The notes under the pieces are model-generated. The model did no database searches. It saw nothing but the letters and a program-made list of their open reading frames with translations, and had not been told where the DNA came from. Source: an uncultured delta proteobacterium (GTDB lineage Bacteria > Desulfobacterota > RBG-13-43-22). Taken from it: DNA of 64,000 bases. The stretch covers positions 32,001 through 96,000 of the forward strand of contig CAWJJC010000020.1 of NCBI GenBank assembly GCA_963843145.1, written 5' to 3'. Shown piece after piece: positions 1-8,794 of the stretch. Position 1 is the first letter of the stretch, and each line of letters begins with the position of its first letter. The position numbers and the translations under genes are program-made.

Positions 1-49
1 GATGCCCTTCGGTGACCGACTCGGACATAAAGACAAAATCCTCTTTCAT
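1..49 (-). CDS. metK: S-adenosylmethionine synthetase, 5' end only (runs off window)
   Basis: Reverse strand from ATG at 49 reads MKEDFVFMSESVTEGH, matching the MetK N-terminal F(T)SESVxEGHPDK signature; ATGA overlap with the ATPase stop (46-48). Not in ORF track. Confidence 0.85.
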   Translation of the reverse strand, partial: MKEDFVFMSESVTEGH

Positions 50-3000
50 GGGGTCTCCTTACTCATTTTGATGGTTTCGTTGATCAGCAGGGGGGCCACG
101 GCCGTCCCGCCGATGACCAGCCCATCGACGAGCCCGACCGGCGAAAGCTGCATAAGAGACCGCAACCCGGGCACGAACAGGGTCGAGACCTGCAACAGCA
201 CGGAAGCGGCCAGGGCCTGGGTCAACAAGCGGTTGGGCGGCAGCTTTTCCTTGGAAAAGATACTGATATGGTCGGACCGGCAACTGAAGGCATGGAGCAA
301 CTGGCCGATGCTCAGGCTCATGAACGCCAGGGTATTGGCCTGGGGACCTCGGCCGTAGCGGACCAAGCCGTACCCGTAGGCCGACAGGGCCCCGGCGGAC
401 AGCACCCCGGATTCGATCATGATTTTTTTAAAATCCTGCCGGCGGATGATCGGCTCTTTCGGGTCCCGGGGCGGTTTGGTGAGCACGTCCGGCTCCGGCA
501 GTTCCATGGCCAAGGCCAGACCGGGGAAGATGTCCGAGATCAGGTTGATCCAGAGGAGCTGCATGGCATTCAGCGGCTCGCCCAGGCCGACCGCCAGAGA
601 GCTGAAGACCACGATGATTTCGCTCATGTTGGTAGCCAACAGGAAATGAATGGCCTTGCGGATATTGTTGTAGATGGTCCGGCCCTGCTTGACGGCGATG
701 ATCATGGTTTCCAGGCGGTCGTCTTCCAGCACCACATCGGCCACCTCCCGAGCCACGTCGGTCCCGGACCTTCCCATGGCTACCCCGATGTCGGCCACTT
801 TCAGGGCCGGTCCGTCATTGATCCCGTCCCCGGTCATGGCCACCACCCGACCGGCCCGTTGCAGGGCCTGGACGATCTGCAGCTTGTGGGCCGGACTGAC
901 CCGGGCAAAGACCTGGACCTTCTCGGCCAGGGCCTCCAGCAAGTCCGGCTGCAGACTGTCCAGGTTGCTGGAATCCAGGATCTCCAGGTCCTCCTCGCGG
1001 TTCAGCTTCAAAGATCGGCCTATGGCGTAGGCGGTGGCCGACTGGTCGCCGGTGATCATGACCGTATCAATACCCGCCGTGTGGAACTGGCCGATCAACT
1101 CCTTCACCCCTTCCCGGACCGGATCGCCCATGCCCACCAGGCCGAGCCAGGTGAGGCTCCCGACCGCATCGGGGTCCTCCAGAAAATTCGCTCCGTCCGA
1201 CAGTAGCGCGTAACCCACCGCCAAGACCCGCAGGCCCTTGCCGGCCAGGCGCTCATTCTCCATTTCCAGTTCCAGGCGGTCCTCTTCCGTGAGGGGCATT
1301 CGTTCCCCGTCACGCATCCAGAAATCGCAGAGGGCCACGACCTCCTGGGGGTTCCCCTTAACCGCCGCCACCCGTTGCCCTTCCTCGGCGGTCCGGTGCA
1401 GGGTGATCATGTAGTTTCGGGTTTCCGTACGCAGGGCCGTTTTTTCAACCGGGAACTGTTCCCGGAGACTCTGAATATTGACGCCGGCGGTCAAGGCCAA
1501 TTGAATGAAGGCGTTCTCCGTTGAAGATCCGCTGACCAGCACATTACCGTCCTGGAAGACCGCGAGCCCCTTGCCCTGGACTTCACGAGTTTTTTGCTGG
1601 TACACGTCGGCGTCGGGGATGAGGGAGCTGACTTCGCTTTCATTGCAGAGGACCGAAATATGGATGAGCTGAAGCAACTCCGGCCAGAGGTACGGATTGA
1701 CGACTTCTTCCCCCTGCTTGAACTGATCTTTTTCCAGGTGGATGCGTCGCATCCCCACATTGAGCATGACCACGGACATCCGGTTCAGCGTCAGGGTCCC
1801 GGTCTTGTCCATGCAGATGGTCTGGACCGACCCCAGGGTTTCCACGGCTTCCAGGTGACGGATGAGGACATTGTATTTGCGCATGCGCCGCAGGCCCAGG
1901 CCCAGCGTGGTGGTGGCCACGGTGGGCAATCCTTCCGGGACGGCCGCCACGGCCAGGGAAATGGAGCTCTTCAGCATCTGGAGAAATCCGTAGCCCCGCA
2001 GCAGGCCGATGACAAATACCAGCCCGCAGACCGCCCCGGAAATCAAGACCAGTTGGCTGCCCATGGTATCGAGCTGCCGTTCCATGGGGGTTTCCGGGGT
2101 CTGGGATTCTCCCATCAGGGTCTGGATCCGGCCGATTTCGGTAAACCGGCCCGTGCCCACCACCAGGGCCAATCCCTGCCCTCCGGTCACCAGGGTGCCC
2201 ATATAGGTCATGTTGGTCCGATCCGCCAGCGCCACCTCCATCTGCAGCGAGGCCCCGTCGGACGCCTGCCCAAAGACCACCAGGGTCTCCGTGGTTTTGG
2301 AGACCGGCAGGCTCTCCCCGGTCAATGCGGATTCATCGATGGTCAGGTTATGGGCTTCGATCAGCCGGGCATCGGCGGTTACATAGGTACCCGGACGCAG
2401 CACCAGGATATCCCCCGGAACCACCTCTTCGGCCCTGATTTCTTCGGCCGTCCCGTCCCGGACCACAAGGGCATGGGGCCGGACCAGGGTCTTCAGGGAG
2501 TGAATGGTCTTCTCGGACTGGCTTTCGGTGACATAGCCGATGACGGCATTGATCAACACCACCGAGGCAATGACCACGGCATCGGCGATCCCGGCGGTGG
2601 CCACGGATATCCCGGCCGCCACCCCGAGCAGGGCCACCGGAAGGGATTTGAACTGGTCAATGAAGATGCTGAAGCCCGAGCGAGGTACCGACTCGGGAAG
2701 GACATTGGGGCCGAATTTTTTCAGGCGGGAAAGGGACTCCGACTGGGGCAACCCCAGAGCGGAATGGGAGCCGAGCTGTTCCAGCAGATCATGGGCCGCC
2801 AGGAGATGCCAGGGTTGGGCCGTCTGCTCTTCGGAATGGACGACCAGATTCCGGATCTTCCGACGGCTGGAGGCGGTTTTTTGACCGATAACAGGGGCCA
2901 GGGGATGGCGGGATTTCGCCTCGGCCGGTTCCGTCCGGCGGTTTCCAGACTGTCTTTCCGGAAAAAAAAGGGGATAAAGGCCGGCCTTTCTTTCCCGGCC

Positions 3001-3252
3001 TTCCTTTATCCCGTTGTTTTGCTGAAAATTAAGGACCAGTGTTTGAAGCAGCGCCCCCAGCTCCTCCGGGGTCCGATGACCGTTGAATCGGATGAGTACA
3101 TGGCCGGTCAGAATATTGGCGGAAAAAGAATAGACTTCCCCCTCCTGGTTCAATTGATCCGCCAGATACTGCTTGAGTCCTTCCGAGCGGTAGAGGCCCT
3201 GGACCCGATACCGGACCCGGCCCCGGACCTCCGTATGGATGACTTCGACCAC
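46..3252 (-). CDS. Cation-transporting P-type ATPase, P2A-like (Ca2+-type), with extra N-terminal HMA2-like domain
   Basis: DKTGTLT, TGES, MITGD, GDGIND motifs; M4 AVPEGLP, M5 TNMSE, M6 LWINLISD; N-terminus HTEVRGRVRYRV...SANILTGHVLIRF. Confidence 0.95.
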   Translation of the reverse strand: MVEVIHTEVRGRVRYRVQGLYRSEGLKQYLADQLNQEGEVYSFSANILTGHVLIRFNGHRTPEELGALLQTLVLNFQQNNGIKEGRERKAGLYPLFFPERQSGNRRTEPAEAKSRHPLAPVIGQKTASSRRKIRNLVVHSEEQTAQPWHLLAAHDLLEQLGSHSALGLPQSESLSRLKKFGPNVLPESVPRSGFSIFIDQFKSLPVALLGVAAGISVATAGIADAVVIASVVLINAVIGYVTESQSEKTIHSLKTLVRPHALVVRDGTAEEIRAEEVVPGDILVLRPGTYVTADARLIEAHNLTIDESALTGESLPVSKTTETLVVFGQASDGASLQMEVALADRTNMTYMGTLVTGGQGLALVVGTGRFTEIGRIQTLMGESQTPETPMERQLDTMGSQLVLISGAVCGLVFVIGLLRGYGFLQMLKSSISLAVAAVPEGLPTVATTTLGLGLRRMRKYNVLIRHLEAVETLGSVQTICMDKTGTLTLNRMSVVMLNVGMRRIHLEKDQFKQGEEVVNPYLWPELLQLIHISVLCNESEVSSLIPDADVYQQKTREVQGKGLAVFQDGNVLVSGSSTENAFIQLALTAGVNIQSLREQFPVEKTALRTETRNYMITLHRTAEEGQRVAAVKGNPQEVVALCDFWMRDGERMPLTEEDRLELEMENERLAGKGLRVLAVGYALLSDGANFLEDPDAVGSLTWLGLVGMGDPVREGVKELIGQFHTAGIDTVMITGDQSATAYAIGRSLKLNREEDLEILDSSNLDSLQPDLLEALAEKVQVFARVSPAHKLQIVQALQRAGRVVAMTGDGINDGPALKVADIGVAMGRSGTDVAREVADVVLEDDRLETMIIAVKQGRTIYNNIRKAIHFLLATNMSEIIVVFSSLAVGLGEPLNAMQLLWINLISDIFPGLALAMELPEPDVLTKPPRDPKEPIIRRQDFKKIMIESGVLSAGALSAYGYGLVRYGRGPQANTLAFMSLSIGQLLHAFSCRSDHISIFSKEKLPPNRLLTQALAASVLLQVSTLFVPGLRSLMQLSPVGLVDGLVIGGTAVAPLLINETIKMSKETP

Positions 3253-3262
3253 GTGCGGCTAT

Positions 3263-3943
3263 TTAGTTTTTTTTGGCCCGCCCGTGCGGACTGACCTCCG
3301 TAGCGGAAGAGGCCTCGGTCTCCCTGGAGGCGGAGGCCGCCCCGCTCCCCTTGGGCAGGAGGGAAGAGGCCACTTCCTTGACCCCTTCCACCACGCCGAC
3401 CAGCATGTCCTTCACAGACCGGACCGCGGTATTCCCAATGGTGCCGGCGGCCTCGATAGCGCCGCCCACGGCCACCTTGGCCACTTCCTCGACGTTGCCC
3501 CCCACTTCCTTGGTGGCCTCGATCACGCCGTCCACGGCCCGCCGGGCTACCAGGCCTACGTCGGCTCCGATCTCCGCGGCGCCTTTCACGGCCCCCTTGA
3601 CCGTCTGGCTGGCTACCGAAACCAAGTCACCGCCCACGTCGCTGATGCCCATGATCACGCCCTTGGCCACGCTCTTGGTGCTGAGGATCAGGCCCGTGCC
3701 GACTTCCTCCGAAGCCTGGATGGTCCCCTTGACCACATCCTTGGCGACGCTCAGGCTTTCGGTGACCACCGCGCCGCCGGCTCGTAGAGTCGTGGAGACC
3801 GTGTTGCGTACCAGGCTGACGATCTCGGATTCGATTTCATTGATGCCCTTCAGGCTGCTGACCACGCCTTCCTTGACGGAAGTGCCGGCCTTCCCGATGG
3901 TTTCATCCACTTTGGCGCCTGTCTTCTCCTGTTTTTCAGTCAT
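3263..3943 (-). CDS. Hypothetical protein with 22-residue Gly/Ala/Val-rich amphipathic repeats
   Basis: 226 aa ORF with RBS (ggag); exact 22-aa periodicity (VVKGTIQASEEVG / VAKGVIMGISDVG / TVKGAVKGAAEIG / AVDGVIEATKEVG / AVGGAIEAAGTIG). Confidence 0.8.
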   Translation of the reverse strand: MTEKQEKTGAKVDETIGKAGTSVKEGVVSSLKGINEIESEIVSLVRNTVSTTLRAGGAVVTESLSVAKDVVKGTIQASEEVGTGLILSTKSVAKGVIMGISDVGGDLVSVASQTVKGAVKGAAEIGADVGLVARRAVDGVIEATKEVGGNVEEVAKVAVGGAIEAAGTIGNTAVRSVKDMLVGVVEGVKEVASSLLPKGSGAASASRETEASSATEVSPHGRAKKN

Positions 3944-4022
3944 TACTTTTCTCCCTAAGAAAATAGTGTTGTTTTTTGTTTTAGATAATAAATTGTACTC
4001 GACTAAACTTTATGACTTCACA

Positions 4023-4550
4023 TTAAACCACCATCCCGTTGTCATTTGATTTCTCCGCCGGGGTTCCATTCTCCTTAGGTTTCGATTTCAAAAAAATGTT
4101 TAAGGCGTACCAGAAGGCCGTGTACCAGGCCGGGGCCATGAAGTTGCCGCGGCTGATTTGGTAAATGCCCATGATCAGCAGGGCCCCGAAAGACAGGGTC
4201 CCCACATCCATTTCCCCGCCGGTAAATTTTTTGATCTTATTTTCTACCTGGTTATATGTTTCAGTTACCTGTAGGTAAATATTGGAAGAAGGCGAACCAA
4301 TTTGTTTGGCCTGTCCGTGGAAATAGGTTCGGGCCAGATCTTTCATCATTGCCGGGTCCAGGGAATGCTTGATCAGGATGCTGCCGGTGACGGGATTGGC
4401 CGCCACCTCATGGATATTGGGATACTTCCCCGCCCGGTCCTTCAGGGACTGGAAAAAAGCAACGTCCCCTTTTCTCGATGGGACTCTGATCCGAAACCGC
4501 CCGGAGGTGGTGTGGCTGATATAGGCATCAGAAGGCAAATTGTTGAACAT
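4023..4550 (-). CDS. HMA2-like domain membrane protein
   Basis: HTTSGRFRIRVP...AANPVTGSILIKH plus C-terminal hydrophobic segment ending APAWYTAFWYA; start moved to ATG 4550 (RBS ggaggg). Confidence 0.8.
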   Translation of the reverse strand: MFNNLPSDAYISHTTSGRFRIRVPSRKGDVAFFQSLKDRAGKYPNIHEVAANPVTGSILIKHSLDPAMMKDLARTYFHGQAKQIGSPSSNIYLQVTETYNQVENKIKKFTGGEMDVGTLSFGALLIMGIYQISRGNFMAPAWYTAFWYALNIFLKSKPKENGTPAEKSNDNGMVV

Positions 4551-4590
4551 GACAGTTCCCTCCGTCAAAGGCCGGACTAAATTTTTACCT

Positions 4591-4887
4591 TTAATCTTTT
4601 GCTTCAATGGTACCGTCCAGCCCTGTTGCCGCCATGGCTCCGGACCCGGCTTCTTCCAATTCGGCCCTGGTCTCGGCTACCAGGTCCTCCACCACCTCCT
4701 GGGCTTCGGCCGCCACTTCCCGACCTTTCTGGTAAAGCAGAAAACCGCCCTTGATGGCAGCTTTGGCCATAGGCTTGACAACACTGGCCAAAACAGGTAT
4801 GACCACAGGTGCCAGAATGGAAGAACCGATACCAATGGCCAAGCCTGTGACGATATTGCCTTTCAGACCGTTATCAAATAGACCCAT
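4591..4887 (-). CDS. DUF5132-like small membrane protein (GxxxG)
   Basis: GLAIGIG...APVVIP..KPMAKAAIKGG..Y.KGRE..AE..EVVEDLVAE.RAE pattern; RBS aaggag. Confidence 0.8.
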   Translation of the reverse strand: MGLFDNGLKGNIVTGLAIGIGSSILAPVVIPVLASVVKPMAKAAIKGGFLLYQKGREVAAEAQEVVEDLVAETRAELEEAGSGAMAATGLDGTIEAKD

Positions 4888-4995
4888 ATCATCCGCTCCT
4901 TTCTCTTTGAAATAAAAATAATAGCTTTTTTCTATCTACTACAATAACAATTAAATCATTATTTGACTACGCATTTTCAATTTCAGGGAAATTTC

Positions 4996-5937: not shown

Positions 5938-7791
5938 TCAACGAATAAATCGGTGGGCGTCTTTTCGCAGTTCGTGGCTCTCCAACACATGAAAAAAACG
6001 GATCGATTTAAGCAACGCCGGTGAAAACTGGCCGATCGGCAGAAAAACAATCTTTTTCCCTTGACGCTCGGCAAAGGTTCGGCAGAAGGATCGGGGTGGT
6101 TGGGCGGCAATATAGGCCACCAGGCGTTCCTCGCTGTAATCGATCCCGGCCAACAGCAGCCTTTCCGGCTTTGAGCGGGCCGCGTTGAAAAACCGATCTT
6201 TCCAAACTTCGAACATCCGCAAGGGGGGATAGCTTAAGACAAAGCCCCCGTACTCACAGCGGGAGATCCCGGGTCCGACCACGTTTTCACCGGCCGGAGT
6301 GGCGTAAAAAGCCATATCCGACTCCTGATCGTGCTCCCCCAGCCAGGTTATCTTCCAGGGAAACCGCTCCGCCTGGTTCTTCGACGATTCATCCTCCTCG
6401 AAAATAAACACCACGGACCCTACCTGGCCCCGGACGGAACTTTCCTCCCGGACATAGATTTTATTTTCCACCAGATGGCGCAGCGTCTCCTTCACGTCCA
6501 ACCCGTCCAAAAGGGAGGTGGTAAACGGAAGCAGCCGGACCTGTTCCTGAGACAAAACCCCTCGGGCCTTCTTCTTAACGTAATCCCCCAGACCTTCCAC
6601 CCGGATGTCTTCGGGGGGATAGGAGCAGATGGCCTCTCCCCGCCAGCGTTTTTTGAACTCCTCCTGTTCGGCCGGGGATGCCCTTTTTTTCGCGGGCACC
6701 GGCACCAGGCGACGGCGAAAAGTCCGGAAGCGCCGATAGAATTGGATCTTTTTCTGATTGATCCGAAGATCCTGGGCGGTCACCTCAATTTCCGGCAATC
6801 GGGACGGGCTTTCCTGGTAAGGGTAAGAGGACCCCCTCTCCCAGACTTCGTAGGAAAAGTCATCGTTGACCGCCCCGCGGGCCGCCACCAGAAGCTGGTA
6901 AAAATCCGGGGTCAAGGTCCCCTGGATAAAGGCATAGTTGCGGGCGAATTTTTTTAAGACGATCAAGGCCGGCTCCCTAATCTTTTCCCGGCTGTTCTTG
7001 TAATGCTGCCTTTGCGCCTCCCCCAGCAGTTCGTCGCGGAGGCGCAGGCGATCCAGATTCCAGAAATCTTCGGGATTGCCGGTCTCCCGGGCCTTGGTTC
7101 GTTTTTCTTCGTATTTTCCTTGTAAAAAGGGCAGCTCTGAAAGGATCTCCCGGCTGGAATCCTCCTTCAGGTTCCCCAACACGACCCCGGAGCGCGTCTC
7201 CCGCCCCAGGGGTTTGGCGGGTTCCAAATCGAGTTGCCTGCGGATTCCCGAGAAATGCCCCAGCCCGCAGACAAGAAGAACCCGTTGGTATTGGCGGCCT
7301 AAGGCCAGGACCTGAGAGGCCATGGTCCGTTCCCGCAGAAGGTCATCGGGAGTCGGGGTCTCACTCCCCCGTTCCTCCCAGTAAACCCGGCAATAGGCTT
7401 CGTAACCGATTTGGGTCAGCGCATAGGAGTCCGGCATGGGGTCCCGAAATAGGGGATAGCCCTCGATATCCCGATCTACAAAAAAAACCGGGAGGGCCTG
7501 CTCTTGTGCCAAGCGAACCGCCTCGATAATCCCATCCACGGGTTCTATAGGCAGATATACCGTTCTTCCGGACTTTTCCGGGTAAACCAGGACCGAGAGG
7601 TAGGGCAGACGACGGACGCCGGCTACTATTTTTTCCTGCAGGGTAGGGGGCAATTCCACTGCCACGGCCGAAGGCCGGAGATCGGTAAAACGCCGGTGAA
7701 CCTCCAGGGCAAATTCCAGCCGGTTGTGCAGGATGGGAACCAGGTGGATGTTCTTAAAGGTGAAAAGGTGGTTTTCGTTAGATGGGGTCAT
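5938..7791 (-). CDS. Conserved hypothetical protein, N-terminal TraB/YehM-like fold, MoxR-associated
   Basis: PILH..F..EV...RPSAVAVELP, FFVDRD, RERTMA, LLVCGLGH; start moved to ATG 7791 because the ORF's upstream extension reads through a repeat. Confidence 0.75.
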   Translation of the reverse strand: MTPSNENHLFTFKNIHLVPILHNRLEFALEVHRRFTDLRPSAVAVELPPTLQEKIVAGVRRLPYLSVLVYPEKSGRTVYLPIEPVDGIIEAVRLAQEQALPVFFVDRDIEGYPLFRDPMPDSYALTQIGYEAYCRVYWEERGSETPTPDDLLRERTMASQVLALGRQYQRVLLVCGLGHFSGIRRQLDLEPAKPLGRETRSGVVLGNLKEDSSREILSELPFLQGKYEEKRTKARETGNPEDFWNLDRLRLRDELLGEAQRQHYKNSREKIREPALIVLKKFARNYAFIQGTLTPDFYQLLVAARGAVNDDFSYEVWERGSSYPYQESPSRLPEIEVTAQDLRINQKKIQFYRRFRTFRRRLVPVPAKKRASPAEQEEFKKRWRGEAICSYPPEDIRVEGLGDYVKKKARGVLSQEQVRLLPFTTSLLDGLDVKETLRHLVENKIYVREESSVRGQVGSVVFIFEEDESSKNQAERFPWKITWLGEHDQESDMAFYATPAGENVVGPGISRCEYGGFVLSYPPLRMFEVWKDRFFNAARSKPERLLLAGIDYSEERLVAYIAAQPPRSFCRTFAERQGKKIVFLPIGQFSPALLKSIRFFHVLESHELRKDAHRFIR

Positions 7792-7806
7792 CCCTTTTCT
7801 GAGCTC

Positions 7807-7943
7807 AAATTCGAAATTCGAAGCACGAAATCCGAAACAAGCACGAAGGTCCAAAATCCCAATGATCAAAACCAAAACGTTTCGAATTTTGAAATTTGGT
7901 CATTTGAATTTGTTTCGGATTTCGTGCTTCGAATTTCGAATTT
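7807..7943. repeat. Palindromic miniature element (heptamer AAATTCG family), copy 1
   Basis: Perfect 34-bp terminal inverted repeat aaattcgaaattcgaagcacgaaatccgaaacaa. Confidence 0.9.
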
Positions 7944-7948
7944 AAAGG

Positions 7949-8794
7949 CTAAAGTTGGAAATACATGAGGGCCTTTTCCCCCAGGATCATCTCCACGGCC
8001 ATCCGCAGGGCATAACCAGGGCGTTCTTCGCCGGGGACCCTCCTCAACAGACCATCGGTTTCCAGGATCTTCAGGGCGTAGCGGGCGATATTGATCCCGT
8101 CCCGCACCGTGAAGCGTTCATGAGCCCGGTGGGCTAACTGCAGAAATCGGACTACATAATCCAAGATATCCTCGGGGGCGAAGGGCAGGTTACGCTGGAG
8201 GATCAGCCGTTCCTCGTCCGGCTCGGGAAAGTCGATGAAGATCTGAGGCTGGAGGCGGGAATGAATATATTCCGGCAGTTCATAGGTGCTGGCATCATCG
8301 TTCATGGTGGCGCAAAAACGAAAATTCGGATGGGCCGGCACTTTTAGGCCGGCTACGATCGATTCCACCGTGCGGCGGTTGTCCAGCAAAGGCGCCAAGG
8401 AGGCCCAGGATTTTTCGCTCATCCGGTTGCCCTCATCCAGGATCAATACTCCACCCCGCAGCATGGCCGTCACCACAGGACTGGCCATGTAGCGGATCTT
8501 CCCCTGGTCGGCAATGACCGGGGTGACGACCAGGTCTTCCGGTCGGGTATCCATAGTGGCCTGGAAAAAATAGACCTCCCGGCCTAAGCGACGGGCGGCG
8601 GCGTAGGCCAGGGTGGTTTTGCCCACACCGGGCTTGCCCACAATGCGGGGGTGCAGGGGGAGGTCCTGTTCCTCCACCACCAGCCAGGCGGCCAGCACCT
8701 GGTCAATCAAATCCGGCTGTCCCACCCAGTCCAGGGGAAAAACATCCGGACGGCACAAGTGCAGGGTAACCCCTTCGATAATCACGGTTTCCAT
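7949..8794 (-). CDS. MoxR-family AAA+ ATPase
   Basis: Walker A GKPGVGKTT, Walker B LILDEGNR, HPNFRFCATMN, SRL. Confidence 0.9.
   Translation of the reverse strand: METVIIEGVTLHLCRPDVFPLDWVGQPDLIDQVLAAWLVVEEQDLPLHPRIVGKPGVGKTTLAYAAARRLGREVYFFQATMDTRPEDLVVTPVIADQGKIRYMASPVVTAMLRGGVLILDEGNRMSEKSWASLAPLLDNRRTVESIVAGLKVPAHPNFRFCATMNDDASTYELPEYIHSRLQPQIFIDFPEPDEERLILQRNLPFAPEDILDYVVRFLQLAHRAHERFTVRDGINIARYALKILETDGLLRRVPGEERPGYALRMAVEMILGEKALMYFQL

What the first reader, a model, noticed from the sequence alone, without database searches (positions are those of the whole stretch)
1..4887. Ferrosome-like operon built around a P2A (Ca2+-type) pump instead of a P1B-6 pump: candidate new ion-storage compartment
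Seen: five co-oriented, closely spaced genes. They are a GxxxG/DUF5132-like small protein, an HMA2-like membrane protein (HTTSGRFRIR...NPVTGSILI), a 22-mer amphipathic repeat protein, a P-type ATPase carrying the same Arg-rich HMA2-like cap (HTEVRGRVRYR...NILTGHVLI), and metK. Established: ferrosome fez clusters combine small GxxxG proteins (FezA-like), HMA-domain membrane proteins (FezC-like) and a P1B-6 ATPase (FezB) with an Arg-rich N-terminus. Here the pump instead has PEGL (M4), NxxE (M5) and NLxxD (M6), the SERCA-type Ca2+ ligands, and a C-terminal multi-TM region. Inference: the same membrane-remodelling accessory toolkit may build a compartment loaded with Ca2+/Mn2+/Mg2+ rather than iron.
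Basis: partly seen in the sequence, partly recalled or inferred. Interest (0 to 1): 0.85.

Follow-up and report, generated by a model that had tools for sequence, protein, structure and literature searches.

The report
Conserved calcium-type pump operon, ferrosome-like partners
This is one copy of a widely conserved but unstudied bacterial operon that joins a calcium-type ion pump to a relative of an iron-storage-organelle membrane protein, two further unknown proteins and a rebuilt look-alike of the SAM-making enzyme; it may serve a calcium or manganese store, but that has not been shown.

Summary
On the minus strand lie a DUF5132 protein, an HMA_2 (CoBaHMA) hairpin protein, a 22-residue-repeat protein and a P2A-type ATPase with a CoBaHMA cap. 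A metK-like gene overlaps the pump's stop codon; only 49 nt of it are in the window.

- **Conservation:** of 41 related loci with enough flank, 29 of 34 capped pumps have both accessory genes and MetK, and 0 of 7 uncapped pumps have either.
- **Link to ferrosomes:** the hairpin protein is a full-length relative of a FezC-like protein beside a P1B-6-like pump. DUF5132 shows no profile similarity to the FezA-like protein there, nor to PacL families.
- **Pump:** nearest human SPCA1 and Listeria LMCA1. It keeps the SERCA-type ligands, with a conserved Gln where I recall SERCA's M8 Glu.
- **"metK":** a distinct paralogue family with the residues I recall as methionine-binding replaced. Here it carries a 1-nt frameshift.

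A compartment is plausible (about 0.4). A plasma-membrane pump platform is almost as likely. No localisation data exist.

This scan has reported the same operon on other genomes. I found no paper describing it; Gaschignard 2024 could not be read.

The parts
4591..4887 (-). DUF5132 small membrane protein (98 aa). It has an N-terminal Gly-zipper hydrophobic segment (residues about 11-35), then a basic helix and an acidic Glu/Ala-rich helix.
   Evidence: Pfam PF17195, E 9.6e-11. It is the only DUF5132 gene in the genome. All 32 aligned homologues match DUF5132. G19, P27, P39, K46, D68, E72 and E76 are at least 90% conserved and E64 is invariant.
4023..4607 (-). FezC-family protein: a CoBaHMA (HMA_2) domain plus a C-terminal helical hairpin. 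It is 194 aa from TTG 4607; the likelier start is ATG 4550, as in relative L005.
   Evidence: Pfam HMA_2, 66.4 bits, profile positions 9-153 of 154. R37 and R39 are invariant in 30 homologues. The AlphaFold model has mean pLDDT 79.4, with strands 29-34, 37-41, 65-71 and 76-81, helices 49-60 and 85-95, then helices 110-129, 135-153 and 159-175. The partner profile hits the FezC-like L124:9239-9802 at 3.6e-25.
3263..3943 (-). Helical-repeat protein (226 aa) with about eight 22-residue repeats of the type AK..VKG.I....EVG.....V. It matches no known family.
   Evidence: Periodicity of 22. No Pfam or NCBIfam hit. The protein atlas gives only unnamed clusters. Mean column identity is 46% over 21 homologues. 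AlphaFold gives 19-residue helices with 3-residue turns, pLDDT 68.5, pTM 0.61. The best Foldseek matches are designed helical-repeat proteins, none at E <= 0.001.
46..3252 (-). P2A-type cation ATPase (1068 aa). It has an N-terminal CoBaHMA cap (residues about 3-74), a basic linker to about 145, then a 10-TM SERCA/SPCA-like core.
   Evidence: Pfam domains. NCBIfam scores PMR1-type at 618 bits (cut-off 798) and SERCA-type at 511 bits (cut-off 703). Best solved relatives are SPCA1 at 502 bits, LMCA1 at 481, SERCA at 395 and Na,K-ATPase at 352. E440, N875, E878, N903, D907 and Q984 are at least 80% conserved across the window protein and 64 homologues; S906 is at least 50% conserved.
1..49 (-). 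First 49 nt of a MetK-like paralogue. Its start overlaps the pump's stop codon (ATGA). The remainder lies upstream of the window at G000:C20:30849-32049 and is split by a 1-nt insertion.
   Evidence: Pfam S-AdoMet_synt N and M domains in one ORF and the C domain in the next. One internal indel against L005. The housekeeping MetK lies elsewhere, next to a gene I take to be SAH hydrolase from its translation alone, with no family scan. Paralogue-specific substitutions are listed.
4950..4971 (-). 22-nt upstream motif CGTAGTCAAATAATGATTTAAT, starting 84 nt before the DUF5132 ATG. It overlaps a sigma-70-like -10 box.
   Evidence: Related motifs (TAGGTAAGTAATGAAA-like) were picked by eye in 11 of the 23 relatives' upstream regions printed. 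A near-copy lies 128 nt before the adjacent MntP-like gene at C20:30037. A promoter-like site spans 4986..4958. The regulator is unknown.

Best explanation
The four window genes and the overlapping metK-like gene form one copy of a conserved operon whose products work together around a cation pump.

**Shown**
- The pump is a P2A-type ATPase nearest the Ca2+/Mn2+ pump SPCA1 and the Ca2+ pump LMCA1. It carries a cysteine-free, arginine-rich CoBaHMA domain at its N-terminus.
- Its neighbour is a full-length relative of a FezC-like protein encoded beside a P1B-6-like pump. FezC itself is a membrane protein enriched in purified ferrosomes.
- DUF5132, the helical-repeat protein and a MetK paralogue co-occur with the capped pump across several phyla.

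**Inferred**
- The pump moves Ca2+ (less likely Mn2+) out of the cytoplasm into a small membrane-bounded space.
- The membrane of that space is shaped or marked by the short helical hairpin of the FezC-type protein and by the Gly-zipper DUF5132 protein.
- The CoBaHMA basic patches dock pump and partner on anionic lipid.
- The soluble repeat protein acts as a scaffold or coat.
- The MetK-like enzyme keeps what I recall as the ATP/triphosphate site but has a charge-reversed substrate pocket. It would supply or process a phosphate-containing or other anionic compound needed for the store.

On this reading the operon is the calcium-type counterpart of a ferrosome cluster.
For: **Conservation**
- Of 80 related loci, MetK is in 56, HMA_2 proteins in 50, DUF5132 in 46 and the repeat protein in 25.
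- Of 41 loci with enough flank, 29 of 34 capped pumps have both accessory genes and MetK, 4 have accessory genes only and 1 has MetK only. None of 7 uncapped pumps has either.
- MetK's start overlaps the pump's stop by 4 nt in 18 of 49 loci, and also here.

**Fez link**
- In the fez-like locus L124 the pump has DYSCG, HNACT and an R-rich N-terminus. The FezC-like neighbour scores 142.7 bits against HMA_2 and 3.6e-25 against my partner profile. A DtxR-type regulator lies beside them.
- FezA, FezB and FezC are enriched in purified ferrosomes, and deleting fezBC abolishes them (bioRxiv 10.1101/2020.01.10.902569, passages).

**Calcium link**
- Two DUF5132 genes and a CoBaHMA-hairpin gene flank ccyA and a Ca2+/H+ exchanger in Microcystis. 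The hairpin gene and the DUF5132 gene next to ccyA are co-expressed with it (bioRxiv 10.1101/2024.07.07.602159, passages).
- Na_Ca_ex genes lie beside the operon in 4 of 80 loci.
- The ion-site residues are conserved.

**Other**
- In two cyanobacteria DUF5132 is fused to the HMA_2-type hairpin.
- ParA-like ATPases lie in 4 of 80 loci and beside this genome's second capped pump.
- The MetK paralogues form one group against housekeeping MetKs, SH-aLRT 100 on a quick tree. D241H and K272R occur in 47 of 47 paralogues.
Against: - There are no localisation, imaging or ion-transport data for any member.
- The CoBaHMA / R-rich cap is not specific to organelles. The ferrosome preprint notes it on CtpC, which works in plasma-membrane clusters (PMC9374683 abstract and passages).
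- DUF5132 is not detectably related to the FezA-like protein (hhalign probability 4.6%).
- No iron, carbonate or polyphosphate genes lie in this window's neighbourhood.
- ParA-like and Na_Ca_ex neighbours are each in only 4 of 80 loci.
- The ion cannot be read from sequence. The position I recall as SERCA E908 is Gln, leaving three acidic ligands.
- In this assembly the metK-like gene is frameshifted, and a second capped pump is split into two ORFs. This may be assembly error or decay.
- RNA-library contigs cover pieces of all four genes, but these are short pieces, mostly 90-95% alike, and they do not prove transcription.
Confidence: 0.4

Rival explanations
1. Plasma-membrane pump platform. 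The pump sits in the cytoplasmic membrane and exports Ca2+ or Mn2+ to the periplasm. DUF5132 (a TM segment plus a Glu/Ala-rich helix) and the CoBaHMA hairpin protein act as scaffolds or chaperones that stabilise and cluster it, as PacL proteins do for CtpC in mycobacterial 'effluxosomes', or as small regulatory subunits. The repeat protein and the MetK-like enzyme are regulatory or metabolic add-ons.
For: - PacL1 has a TM domain plus Glu/Ala repeats, is co-operonic with CtpC, and is needed for CtpC abundance and for membrane foci (PMC9374683, abstract and passages; PMC13043812, abstract).
- CtpC carries the R-rich motif.
- DUF5132 has the same layout, with conserved acidic residues E64, D68, E72 and E76.
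- From general knowledge, most bacterial P2A pumps are envelope exporters.
- An MntP-like gene with a related upstream motif lies next to the operon.
Against: - None of 32 DUF5132 homologues matches DUF1490 or DUF6110 in Pfam at E <= 10.
- Efflux platforms have no counterpart of the strongly conserved repeat protein or of the translationally coupled MetK paralogue.
- The partner is a full-length relative of a FezC-like protein; FezC was found on an internal organelle.
Confidence: 0.35
2. Phosphate-starvation cation module. The operon belongs to the Pho response and handles divalent cations released or needed when phosphate stores or phospholipids are remodelled. The MetK-like enzyme acts on ATP or triphosphate.
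For: - Earlier notes of this scan report Pho-type sites and pst neighbours on other genomes (unchecked notes).
- Pst permease or PstB genes lie within 7 kb in 4 of 80 loci (L009, L011, L021, L059).
- A PstS-like gene follows this genome's second capped pump.
- The paralogues keep the residues I recall as triphosphate-binding.
Against: - No pst or pho gene lies within about 10 kb of this copy.
- The best genome-wide matches to the shared upstream motif are not before phosphate genes. Of 12 hand-picked candidates looked at, only the MntP-like neighbour is related to the operon.
- The regulator is unidentified.
Confidence: 0.15
3. Unrelated genes that merely happen to be adjacent, with an ordinary Ca2+ exporter and an ordinary metK.
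For: None beyond the fact that each family can occur alone.
Against: - Order and content recur across phyla.
- MetK is a separate paralogue family present in addition to the housekeeping gene in 4 of 4 carrier genomes checked.
- Start and stop codons overlap.
Confidence: 0.02

Closest known systems
Ferrosome (fez) gene clusters: FezB (P1B-6 ATPase), FezC, FezA (Grant et al., bioRxiv 10.1101/2020.01.10.902569)
   Same: - The pump has an N-terminal R-rich / CoBaHMA cap.
- A partner protein of the HMA_2 family (CoBaHMA plus two C-terminal helices) is homologous over its full length to a FezC-like protein.
- There is a small hydrophobic Gly-zipper protein.
- The genes are co-operonic.
   Different: - The pump is P2A (PEGL, 10 TM, Cation_ATPase_N/C), not P1B-6 (D[Y/F]SCA, HNxxT).
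- DUF5132 is not detectably related to the FezA-like protein tested.
- No Fur, DtxR or Feo context is present.
- The operon has two extra conserved genes: the helical-repeat protein and the MetK paralogue.
- No granules have been demonstrated.
PacL/CtpC metal-efflux platforms ('effluxosomes') of Mycobacterium tuberculosis (PMC9374683, PMC13043812)
   Same: A small protein with a TM segment plus a Glu/Ala-rich cytoplasmic helix is encoded with a P-type ATPase that carries an R-rich N-terminus.
   Different: - PacL is DUF1490, restricted to Actinobacteria and related to DUF6110. None of 32 DUF5132 proteins matches either.
- DUF5132 has no metal-binding tail.
- CtpC is a P1B-type pump.
- Effluxosomes have no FezC-type, repeat-protein or MetK partner.
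ccyA (calcyanin) neighbourhood of Microcystis aeruginosa PCC 7806, a candidate locus for intracellular amorphous CaCO3 (bioRxiv 10.1101/2024.07.07.602159)
   Same: Two DUF5132 proteins and a CoBaHMA-hairpin protein lie next to a calcium transporter. The hairpin gene and the DUF5132 gene next to ccyA are co-expressed with it.
   Different: - The transporter there is a Ca2+/H+ exchanger, not a P-type pump.
- No calcyanin is seen in this window, nor beside the operon in Chlorogloeopsis fritschii PCC 6912.
- That neighbourhood has no MetK paralogue or repeat protein.
SPCA1 (ATP2C1) and Listeria LMCA1 Ca2+(/Mn2+) pumps, P2A-type
   Same: These are the best-scoring solved relatives (502 and 481 bits). 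The TGES, PEGL, DKTGT and TGDGIND motifs and the M6 Asn and Asp are shared.
   Different: - This pump scores below NCBIfam's equivalog cut-offs.
- It keeps the M5 Asn and Glu, at positions where the SPCA1 alignment shows neither; I recall these as SERCA site I ligands.
- It has a conserved Gln at the M8 position.
- It carries a 145-residue CoBaHMA cap and linker that SPCA1 and LMCA1 lack.
S-adenosylmethionine synthetase MetK
   Same: All three Pfam domains are present. H17, D19, K20, E45, D166, R247, K248, K268, D269 and D274 are retained (own housekeeping numbering).
   Different: - D241H and K272R occur in 47 of 47 paralogues, F265L in 98%, G261S in 91% and E58R in 85%.
- The gate loop and the GAGDQG motif are rebuilt.
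- The paralogues form a separate group from housekeeping MetKs.
- The assignment of these positions to the methionine pocket is recalled, not tested.

Membership tests
Ferrosome (fez) cluster | P1B-6 ATPase with D[Y/F]SCA in TM4 and HNxxT in TM6 | tested here: not met
   The pump has PEGL and the Cation_ATPase_N/C domains and scores best against P2A models. The motifs are taken from the preprint.
Ferrosome (fez) cluster | R-rich motif at the N-terminus of the pump | tested here: met
   H6...R10-G-R-V-R-Y-R16. The H..GRxR motif is visibly retained in most of the 64 homologue N-termini printed. 34 of 41 full-flank pumps match the HMA_2-partner profile.
Ferrosome (fez) cluster | FezC-type protein (HMA-like domain with R-rich motif plus two hydrophobic helices) | tested here: met
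   Pfam HMA_2 over positions 9-153 of 154. The partner profile hits the FezC-like protein of L124 at 3.6e-25. That protein scores 142.7 bits against HMA_2. FezC of D. magneticus itself was not available for comparison.
Ferrosome (fez) cluster | FezA-type small hydrophobic protein with GxxxG | tested here: inconclusive
   The motif is present (G15xxxG19xG21). hhalign of the DUF5132 alignment against the FezA-like protein of L124 aligns only 15 columns at probability 4.6%. Only one FezA-like sequence was tested.
Ferrosome (fez) cluster | Iron-homeostasis context (Fur, DtxR, Feo) | tested here: not met
   The neighbours are pyrF, a weak DUF5682-like gene, an AAA_5 gene, MntP-like, an oxidoreductase and ArsR. 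A DtxR-type regulator was seen only in the fez-like locus L124.
Ferrosome (fez) cluster | Formation of membrane-bounded mineral granules | not testable with these tools
   This needs microscopy of a carrier strain or heterologous expression.
CoBaHMA domain (Pfam HMA_2) | HMA-like beta-alpha-beta-beta-alpha core with an extra N-terminal strand carrying a conserved His, basic residues in the first strands, and no CxxC | tested here: met
   H32 and the R37/R39/R41 motif, with no CxxC. The AlphaFold model has strands 29-34, 37-41, 65-71 and 76-81 and helices 49-60 and 85-95, with pLDDT above 90 in the domain. Foldseek gave no match at E <= 0.001; its weak matches are KipI-type YbgJK and HMA domains. 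The features are as described in PMC8890360.
P2A-type ATPase (SERCA / SPCA / LMCA1) | TGES, PEGL, DKTGT and TGDGIND motifs, a 10-TM architecture, and M4/M5/M6 ion ligands | tested here: met
P2A-type ATPase (SERCA / SPCA / LMCA1) | Reaches the curated equivalog score of the PMR1-type or SERCA-type model | tested here: not met
   618 bits against a cut-off of 798.3, and 511 against 703.4. It is a distinct subfamily. No reference tree was built because no named reference sequences were on hand.
PacL (DUF1490) / DUF6110 scaffolds | Sequence membership of DUF1490 or DUF6110 | tested here: not met
   0 of 32 DUF5132 homologues match either family at E <= 10; 32 of 32 match DUF5132. HMMER's filters may hide very weak matches.
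SAM synthetase (MetK) | Three MetK domains with the conserved substrate-pocket residues | tested here: not met
   The domains are present. 44 positions invariant in 6 housekeeping MetKs differ in the consensus of 47 paralogues, including D241H in 100%. Assigning those positions to the methionine pocket is recalled.
Pho regulon | PhoB-type sites before the operon, or pst/pho neighbours | tested here: inconclusive
   A shared upstream motif exists, but its regulator is unknown and it is not found before phosphate genes in this genome. pst genes lie in 4 of 80 loci.

The most novel reading that the evidence does not exclude
The operon builds a previously unknown bacterial organelle: a small lipid-bounded store of calcium (or manganese). 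A P2A pump loads it. A FezC-type hairpin protein and DUF5132 shape its membrane. A new helical-repeat protein coats it. A rebuilt MetK-fold enzyme, no longer making SAM, supplies the counter-anion or a lipid or mineral modifier. This would make ferrosome-type membrane toolkits a general platform for ion-storage organelles across many phyla.
Probability: 0.3. Interest if true: 0.9.

Novelty: new variant of a known kind. Interest (0 to 1): 0.72.

Why it matters
**If the compartment reading is right.** Ferrosome-type accessory proteins would be a general kit for ion-storage organelles rather than an iron speciality. Related loci carry record titles from Thermodesulfobacteriota, Nitrospirota, cyanobacteria, proteobacteria and Acidobacteriota, among others. 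A calcium-type version there would bear on bacterial calcium homeostasis and on intracellular Ca mineral formation.

**If the platform reading is right.** The PacL/CtpC idea of scaffolded pump clusters would extend to a different pump class and well beyond Actinobacteria.

**Either way.**
- The MetK paralogue is a clean case of an essential enzyme fold rebuilt for an unknown reaction and tied to a membrane pump.
- The repeat protein is a new, strongly conserved family.
- Cultured carriers exist (Nitrosospira sp. Nsp14, Chlorogloeopsis fritschii PCC 6912, Rivularia sp., Oligoflexus tunisiensis), so the question is directly testable.

Tried and rejected
- **Complex prediction.** The HMA_2 hairpin (residues 118-194) was folded with DUF5132, using alignments A2 and A1. 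The tool's verdict was 'no answer', score 0.00. This is no evidence either way.
- **The search for related loci with the P1B pump of L063.** It returned only itself.
- **Search for FezB-type pumps.** Of 30 P1B loci taken from 301 genomes of the phylum, one (L110) had DYSC plus HNxxT. In the four fetched regions around candidate fez-like pumps, the DUF5132 and repeat-protein profiles hit nothing at E <= 0.01.
- **Foldseek against PDB.** Neither model gave a match at E <= 0.001. The designed-repeat matches to the repeat protein say only 'alpha-solenoid'.
- **Protein atlas for the repeat protein.** Only unnamed clusters came back.
- **Plasmid collection with the pump.** 497 records matched, all below 60% identity. 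The 25 listed start at residue 80 or later and so do not cover the cap. No Fischerella ccyA megaplasmid was among the rows listed.
- **Position-weight-matrix scan of the genome with the upstream motif.** Many of the best matches look like ribosome-site-plus-ATG contexts. No phosphate genes were found among the candidates examined.
- **Upstream of the second pump.** I saw no motif copy by eye.
- **Sequencing runs.** All 20 runs hold at most 0.17 of the sampled words. The laid contigs are short and mostly 90-95% alike. I draw no conclusion about habitat or expression level, and uncovered parts mean nothing.
- **Papers.** The CoBaHMA paper (Gaschignard 2024, Proteins) is not held. A search for MetK-paralogue terms gave nothing relevant among the 15 of 54 papers listed.
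- **Tree.** The careful tree search did not finish, so the quick tree is reported.

Full report
**What is in the sequence.** The window is G000:C20:32001-96000 of a 5.35-Mb, 32-contig genome that is 97.9% complete with 6.9% contamination. Four closely spaced genes lie on the minus strand between 46 and 4887.
- 4887..4591 encodes a 98-aa DUF5132 protein (Pfam E 9.6e-11).
- 4607..4023 encodes a 194-aa HMA_2 protein (66 bits, profile positions 9-153 of 154).
- 3943..3263 encodes a 226-aa protein with no Pfam or NCBIfam match.
- 3252..46 encodes a 1068-aa P-type ATPase.

The pump's N-terminus (H6, R10-G-R-V-R-Y-R16) matches HMA_2 at 27.2 bits in hmmscan, under the 30-bit cut-off, and at 32.6 bits in the genome scan. 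The fifth gene, metK, has only 49 nt in the window. On the own contig its ATG overlaps the pump's stop as ATGA, and the MetK N and M domains lie in one ORF with the C domain in the next. A comparison with its closest relative (53 mismatches in about 1,230 aligned nt) shows one inserted base as the cause. A convergent MntP-like gene follows.

- Iterated searches with the window's proteins found MetK in 56 loci, HMA_2-type proteins in 50, DUF5132 in 46 and the repeat protein in 25 of the 80. A single-pass search gave 57, 45, 49 and 25.
- The usual order is DUF5132, HMA_2, repeat protein, pump, MetK.
- Record titles name Thermodesulfobacteriota, Nitrospirota, Binatia, cyanobacteria, beta- and gammaproteobacteria, Acidobacteriota and Methylomirabilota.
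- Of 41 loci with at least 2.5 kb upstream and 1.5 kb downstream, 34 pumps carry the cap. Of these, 29 have accessory genes and MetK, 4 have accessory genes only and 1 has MetK only. None of the 7 uncapped pumps has either. Related genomes are not independent, so this is a pattern and not a statistic.
- A profile of the repeat protein found it in 24 of 301 genomes sampled from the phylum, and in 18 of the 259 of good quality. It was not found in the one same-genus genome, which is 94% complete. The distribution is patchy.

**The pump.**
- NCBIfam ranks PMR1-type (618 bits) above SERCA-type (511), PMCA (393), Na,K (387), H+ (369) and Mg (324). All are under their curated cut-offs.
- Among solved structures, human SPCA1 scores 502 bits, Listeria LMCA1 481, SERCA 395 and Na,K-ATPase 352.
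- In an alignment of the window protein with 64 homologues, PEGL (E440), TN.SEI (N875, E878), the M6 Asn and Asp (N903, D907) and a Gln in M8 (Q984) are at least 80% conserved. S906 is at least 50% conserved.
- In the SPCA1 alignment the M5 Asn and Glu are not present in SPCA1.
- That Q984 sits where SERCA has E908 is my own mapping from recalled numbering. Ca2+ is the best guess, Mn2+ is possible, and the ion is not settled.

**The partners.**
- The HMA_2 protein models as strand-strand-helix-strand-strand-helix followed by three helices, the last two forming a hairpin, with mean pLDDT 79.4. R37 and R39 are invariant in 30 homologues, and the C-terminal PAWYTAFWYA motif is strongly conserved.
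- HMA_2 is the CoBaHMA domain, described as an HMA-like fold with an extra strand, a conserved His and a basic patch (PMC8890360, passages; bioRxiv 10.1101/2024.07.07.602159, passages).
- DUF5132 has a Gly-zipper hydrophobic segment, a basic helix and an acidic Glu/Ala helix.
- In two cyanobacteria, DUF5132 is fused to the HMA_2-type C-terminal hairpin. This suggests the two act together.
- The repeat protein has a 22-residue period and 46% mean column identity over 21 homologues. Its model is a stack of 19-residue helices (pLDDT 68.5). Only designed helical-repeat proteins resemble it, weakly.

**Comparison with ferrosome clusters.** The preprint states four relevant things (passages).
- FezA, FezB and FezC are enriched in purified ferrosomes.
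- FezB is a P1B-6 pump with D[Y/F]SCA and HNxxT.
- FezB, FezC and related pumps such as CtpC carry an R-rich N-terminal motif.
- FezA-type proteins carry GxxxG.

I looked for a real fez-like locus among 301 genomes of the phylum. One of the 30 best P1B loci has DYSCG, HNACT and an R-rich N-terminus. Its upstream neighbour scores 142.7 bits against HMA_2 over the full profile and 3.6e-25 against my profile of the window-type partners. A DtxR-type regulator lies beside it. The HMA_2 partner is therefore a relative of this FezC-like protein. The 84-aa FezA-like protein of that locus has no Pfam match, and it aligns to the DUF5132 profile over only 15 Gly-zipper columns at probability 4.6%. Some related loci place CoBaHMA-capped P1B pumps next to the same DUF5132 and HMA_2 pair. 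The partner pair therefore serves more than one pump class.

**The rival model.**
- PacL1 has a TM domain plus Glu/Ala repeats. It is co-operonic with CtpC, stabilises it and clusters it in plasma-membrane foci.
- PacL is DUF1490, said to be related to DUF6110, which accompanies P1B-6 pumps (PMC9374683, abstract and passages; PMC13043812, abstract only).
- DUF5132 looks similar in layout, but 0 of 32 homologues match either family.
- This model explains the small partners as well as the organelle model does. It does not explain the repeat protein or MetK.

**The MetK-like gene.**
- The genome has a housekeeping MetK, next to a gene I take to be SAH hydrolase from its translation alone, on another contig.
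- In 4 of 4 other carrier genomes checked there is likewise a higher-scoring MetK elsewhere. The one carrier whose operon lacks MetK has a single copy.
- Forty-seven operon-linked copies differ from six housekeeping copies at 44 positions that are invariant in the latter. D241H and K272R occur in 100% of paralogues, F265L in 98%, G261S in 91% and E58R in 85%. The gate loop and GAGDQG are rebuilt.
- H17, D19, K20, E45, D166, R247, K248, K268, D269 and D274 are kept.
- I recall the changed positions as the methionine pocket and the kept ones as the ATP/triphosphate and metal site. This mapping was not tested.
- A quick tree splits 48 paralogues from 6 housekeeping sequences with SH-aLRT 100. The careful search did not finish.
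- The start overlaps the pump's stop by 4 nt in 18 of 49 loci. This fits co-translation.

**Context and regulation.**
- Recurrent extra neighbours within 7 kb are a roughly 100-aa double zinc-ribbon protein (12 loci), DUF3562 (7), Na_Ca_ex (4), ParA-like ATPases (4), Pst components (4) and response-regulator or kinase genes (11 loci).
- This genome has a second capped P2-type pump, split into two ORFs, 21-24 kb away. It is followed by a ParA-like and a PstS-like gene.
- A TAGGTAAGTAATGAAA-like motif was picked by eye in 11 of the 23 relatives' upstream regions printed.
- The window's version lies 84 nt before the first ATG, over a promoter-like -10 box. A near-copy precedes the MntP-like gene.
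- I could not tie this motif to PhoB. The Pho link reported by earlier notes is neither confirmed nor excluded here.
- Contigs from two metatranscriptome libraries cover short pieces of all four genes, mostly 90-95% alike. This is weak support for expression of this or related copies.

**Verdict.** The finding is real and the gene set is conserved. I found no description of the operon in the library searched.
- 'DUF5132' occurs in one paper, the Microcystis preprint.
- 'CoBaHMA' occurs in five papers.
- The MetK-paralogue search gave nothing relevant among the 15 of 54 papers listed.
- The CoBaHMA survey by Gaschignard et al. 2024 could not be read. It may already list CoBaHMA-ATPase fusions.

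This scan has reported the same operon on other genomes. I rate a ferrosome-like Ca/Mn compartment at about 0.4, a plasma-membrane platform at about 0.35, and a phosphate-starvation module at about 0.15 (it overlaps with both).

Noticed in passing
G000:C20:8222-11328 (outside the window; L004:8222-11328, minus strand): A second CoBaHMA-capped P2-type ATPase is split into two ORFs in different frames (514 aa and 509 aa). It is followed by a ParA/MinD-like ATPase (L004:7184-7936) and a PstS-like binding protein (L004:5870-6871). A phosphatidylserine decarboxylase gene lies just upstream (L004:12843-13538).
   Followed up: partly
G000:C20:30849-32049 (L003:10849-12049, minus strand); window 1-49: The operon's MetK-like gene carries a single inserted base relative to its closest relative (L005), which splits it into 269-aa and 147-aa ORFs. 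It could be an assembly error or a genuine inactivation.
   Followed up: partly
G000:C20:30165-30803 (L003:10165-10803, plus strand) and C20:30037: An MntP-like (putative manganese efflux) gene lies convergent to the operon. About 128 nt before it is a 22-nt motif closely matching the one before the operon's first gene.
   Followed up: partly
L007:6267-6839 and L016:6343-6966: In Chlorogloeopsis fritschii PCC 6912 and Rivularia sp., DUF5132 is fused to the C-terminal hairpin part of the HMA_2 profile, without the CoBaHMA domain. C. fritschii also has a second paralogue-type MetK elsewhere (L133).
   Followed up: partly
12 related loci, e.g. L024:11738-12031 next to L024:11367-11741: A roughly 100-aa double zinc-ribbon protein (InsA-type and Top1-type ribbons) recurs in 12 related loci. 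In the loci I compared it lies beside a single-domain CoBaHMA protein downstream of MetK. It is a possible regulator. It was not sought in this genome.
   Followed up: no
L124 (G297:C94:8000-24000): A genome of the same phylum carries a fez-like cluster. It contains a P1B-6-like pump (DYSCG, HNACT), a FezC-like protein, two further CoBaHMA proteins, an 84-aa Gly-zipper protein and a DtxR-type regulator.
   Followed up: partly
window 5938-8794 (minus strand): A 645-aa protein with a weak DUF5682-like match and a 281-aa AAA_5 (dynein-related / MoxR-like) ATPase lie just beyond the divergent pyrF gene. They seem unrelated to the operon.
   Followed up: no
L003:5837-7213 (G000:C20:25837-27213): An IS66 Orf2-like gene and a DruA-like (Druantia) gene lie between the two pump loci, and an IS110 transposase lies at L004:4529-5638. 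This hints that the region is mobile or rearranged.
   Followed up: no
L067 and L069: In two related loci whose record titles name Methylomirabilota and Rokuibacteriota, a capped P1B pump with DYGTA in place of the CPC or SCA motif sits between the DUF5132/HMA_2 pair and the P2A pump. One partner pair thus lies with two pump classes in a single cluster.
   Followed up: partly
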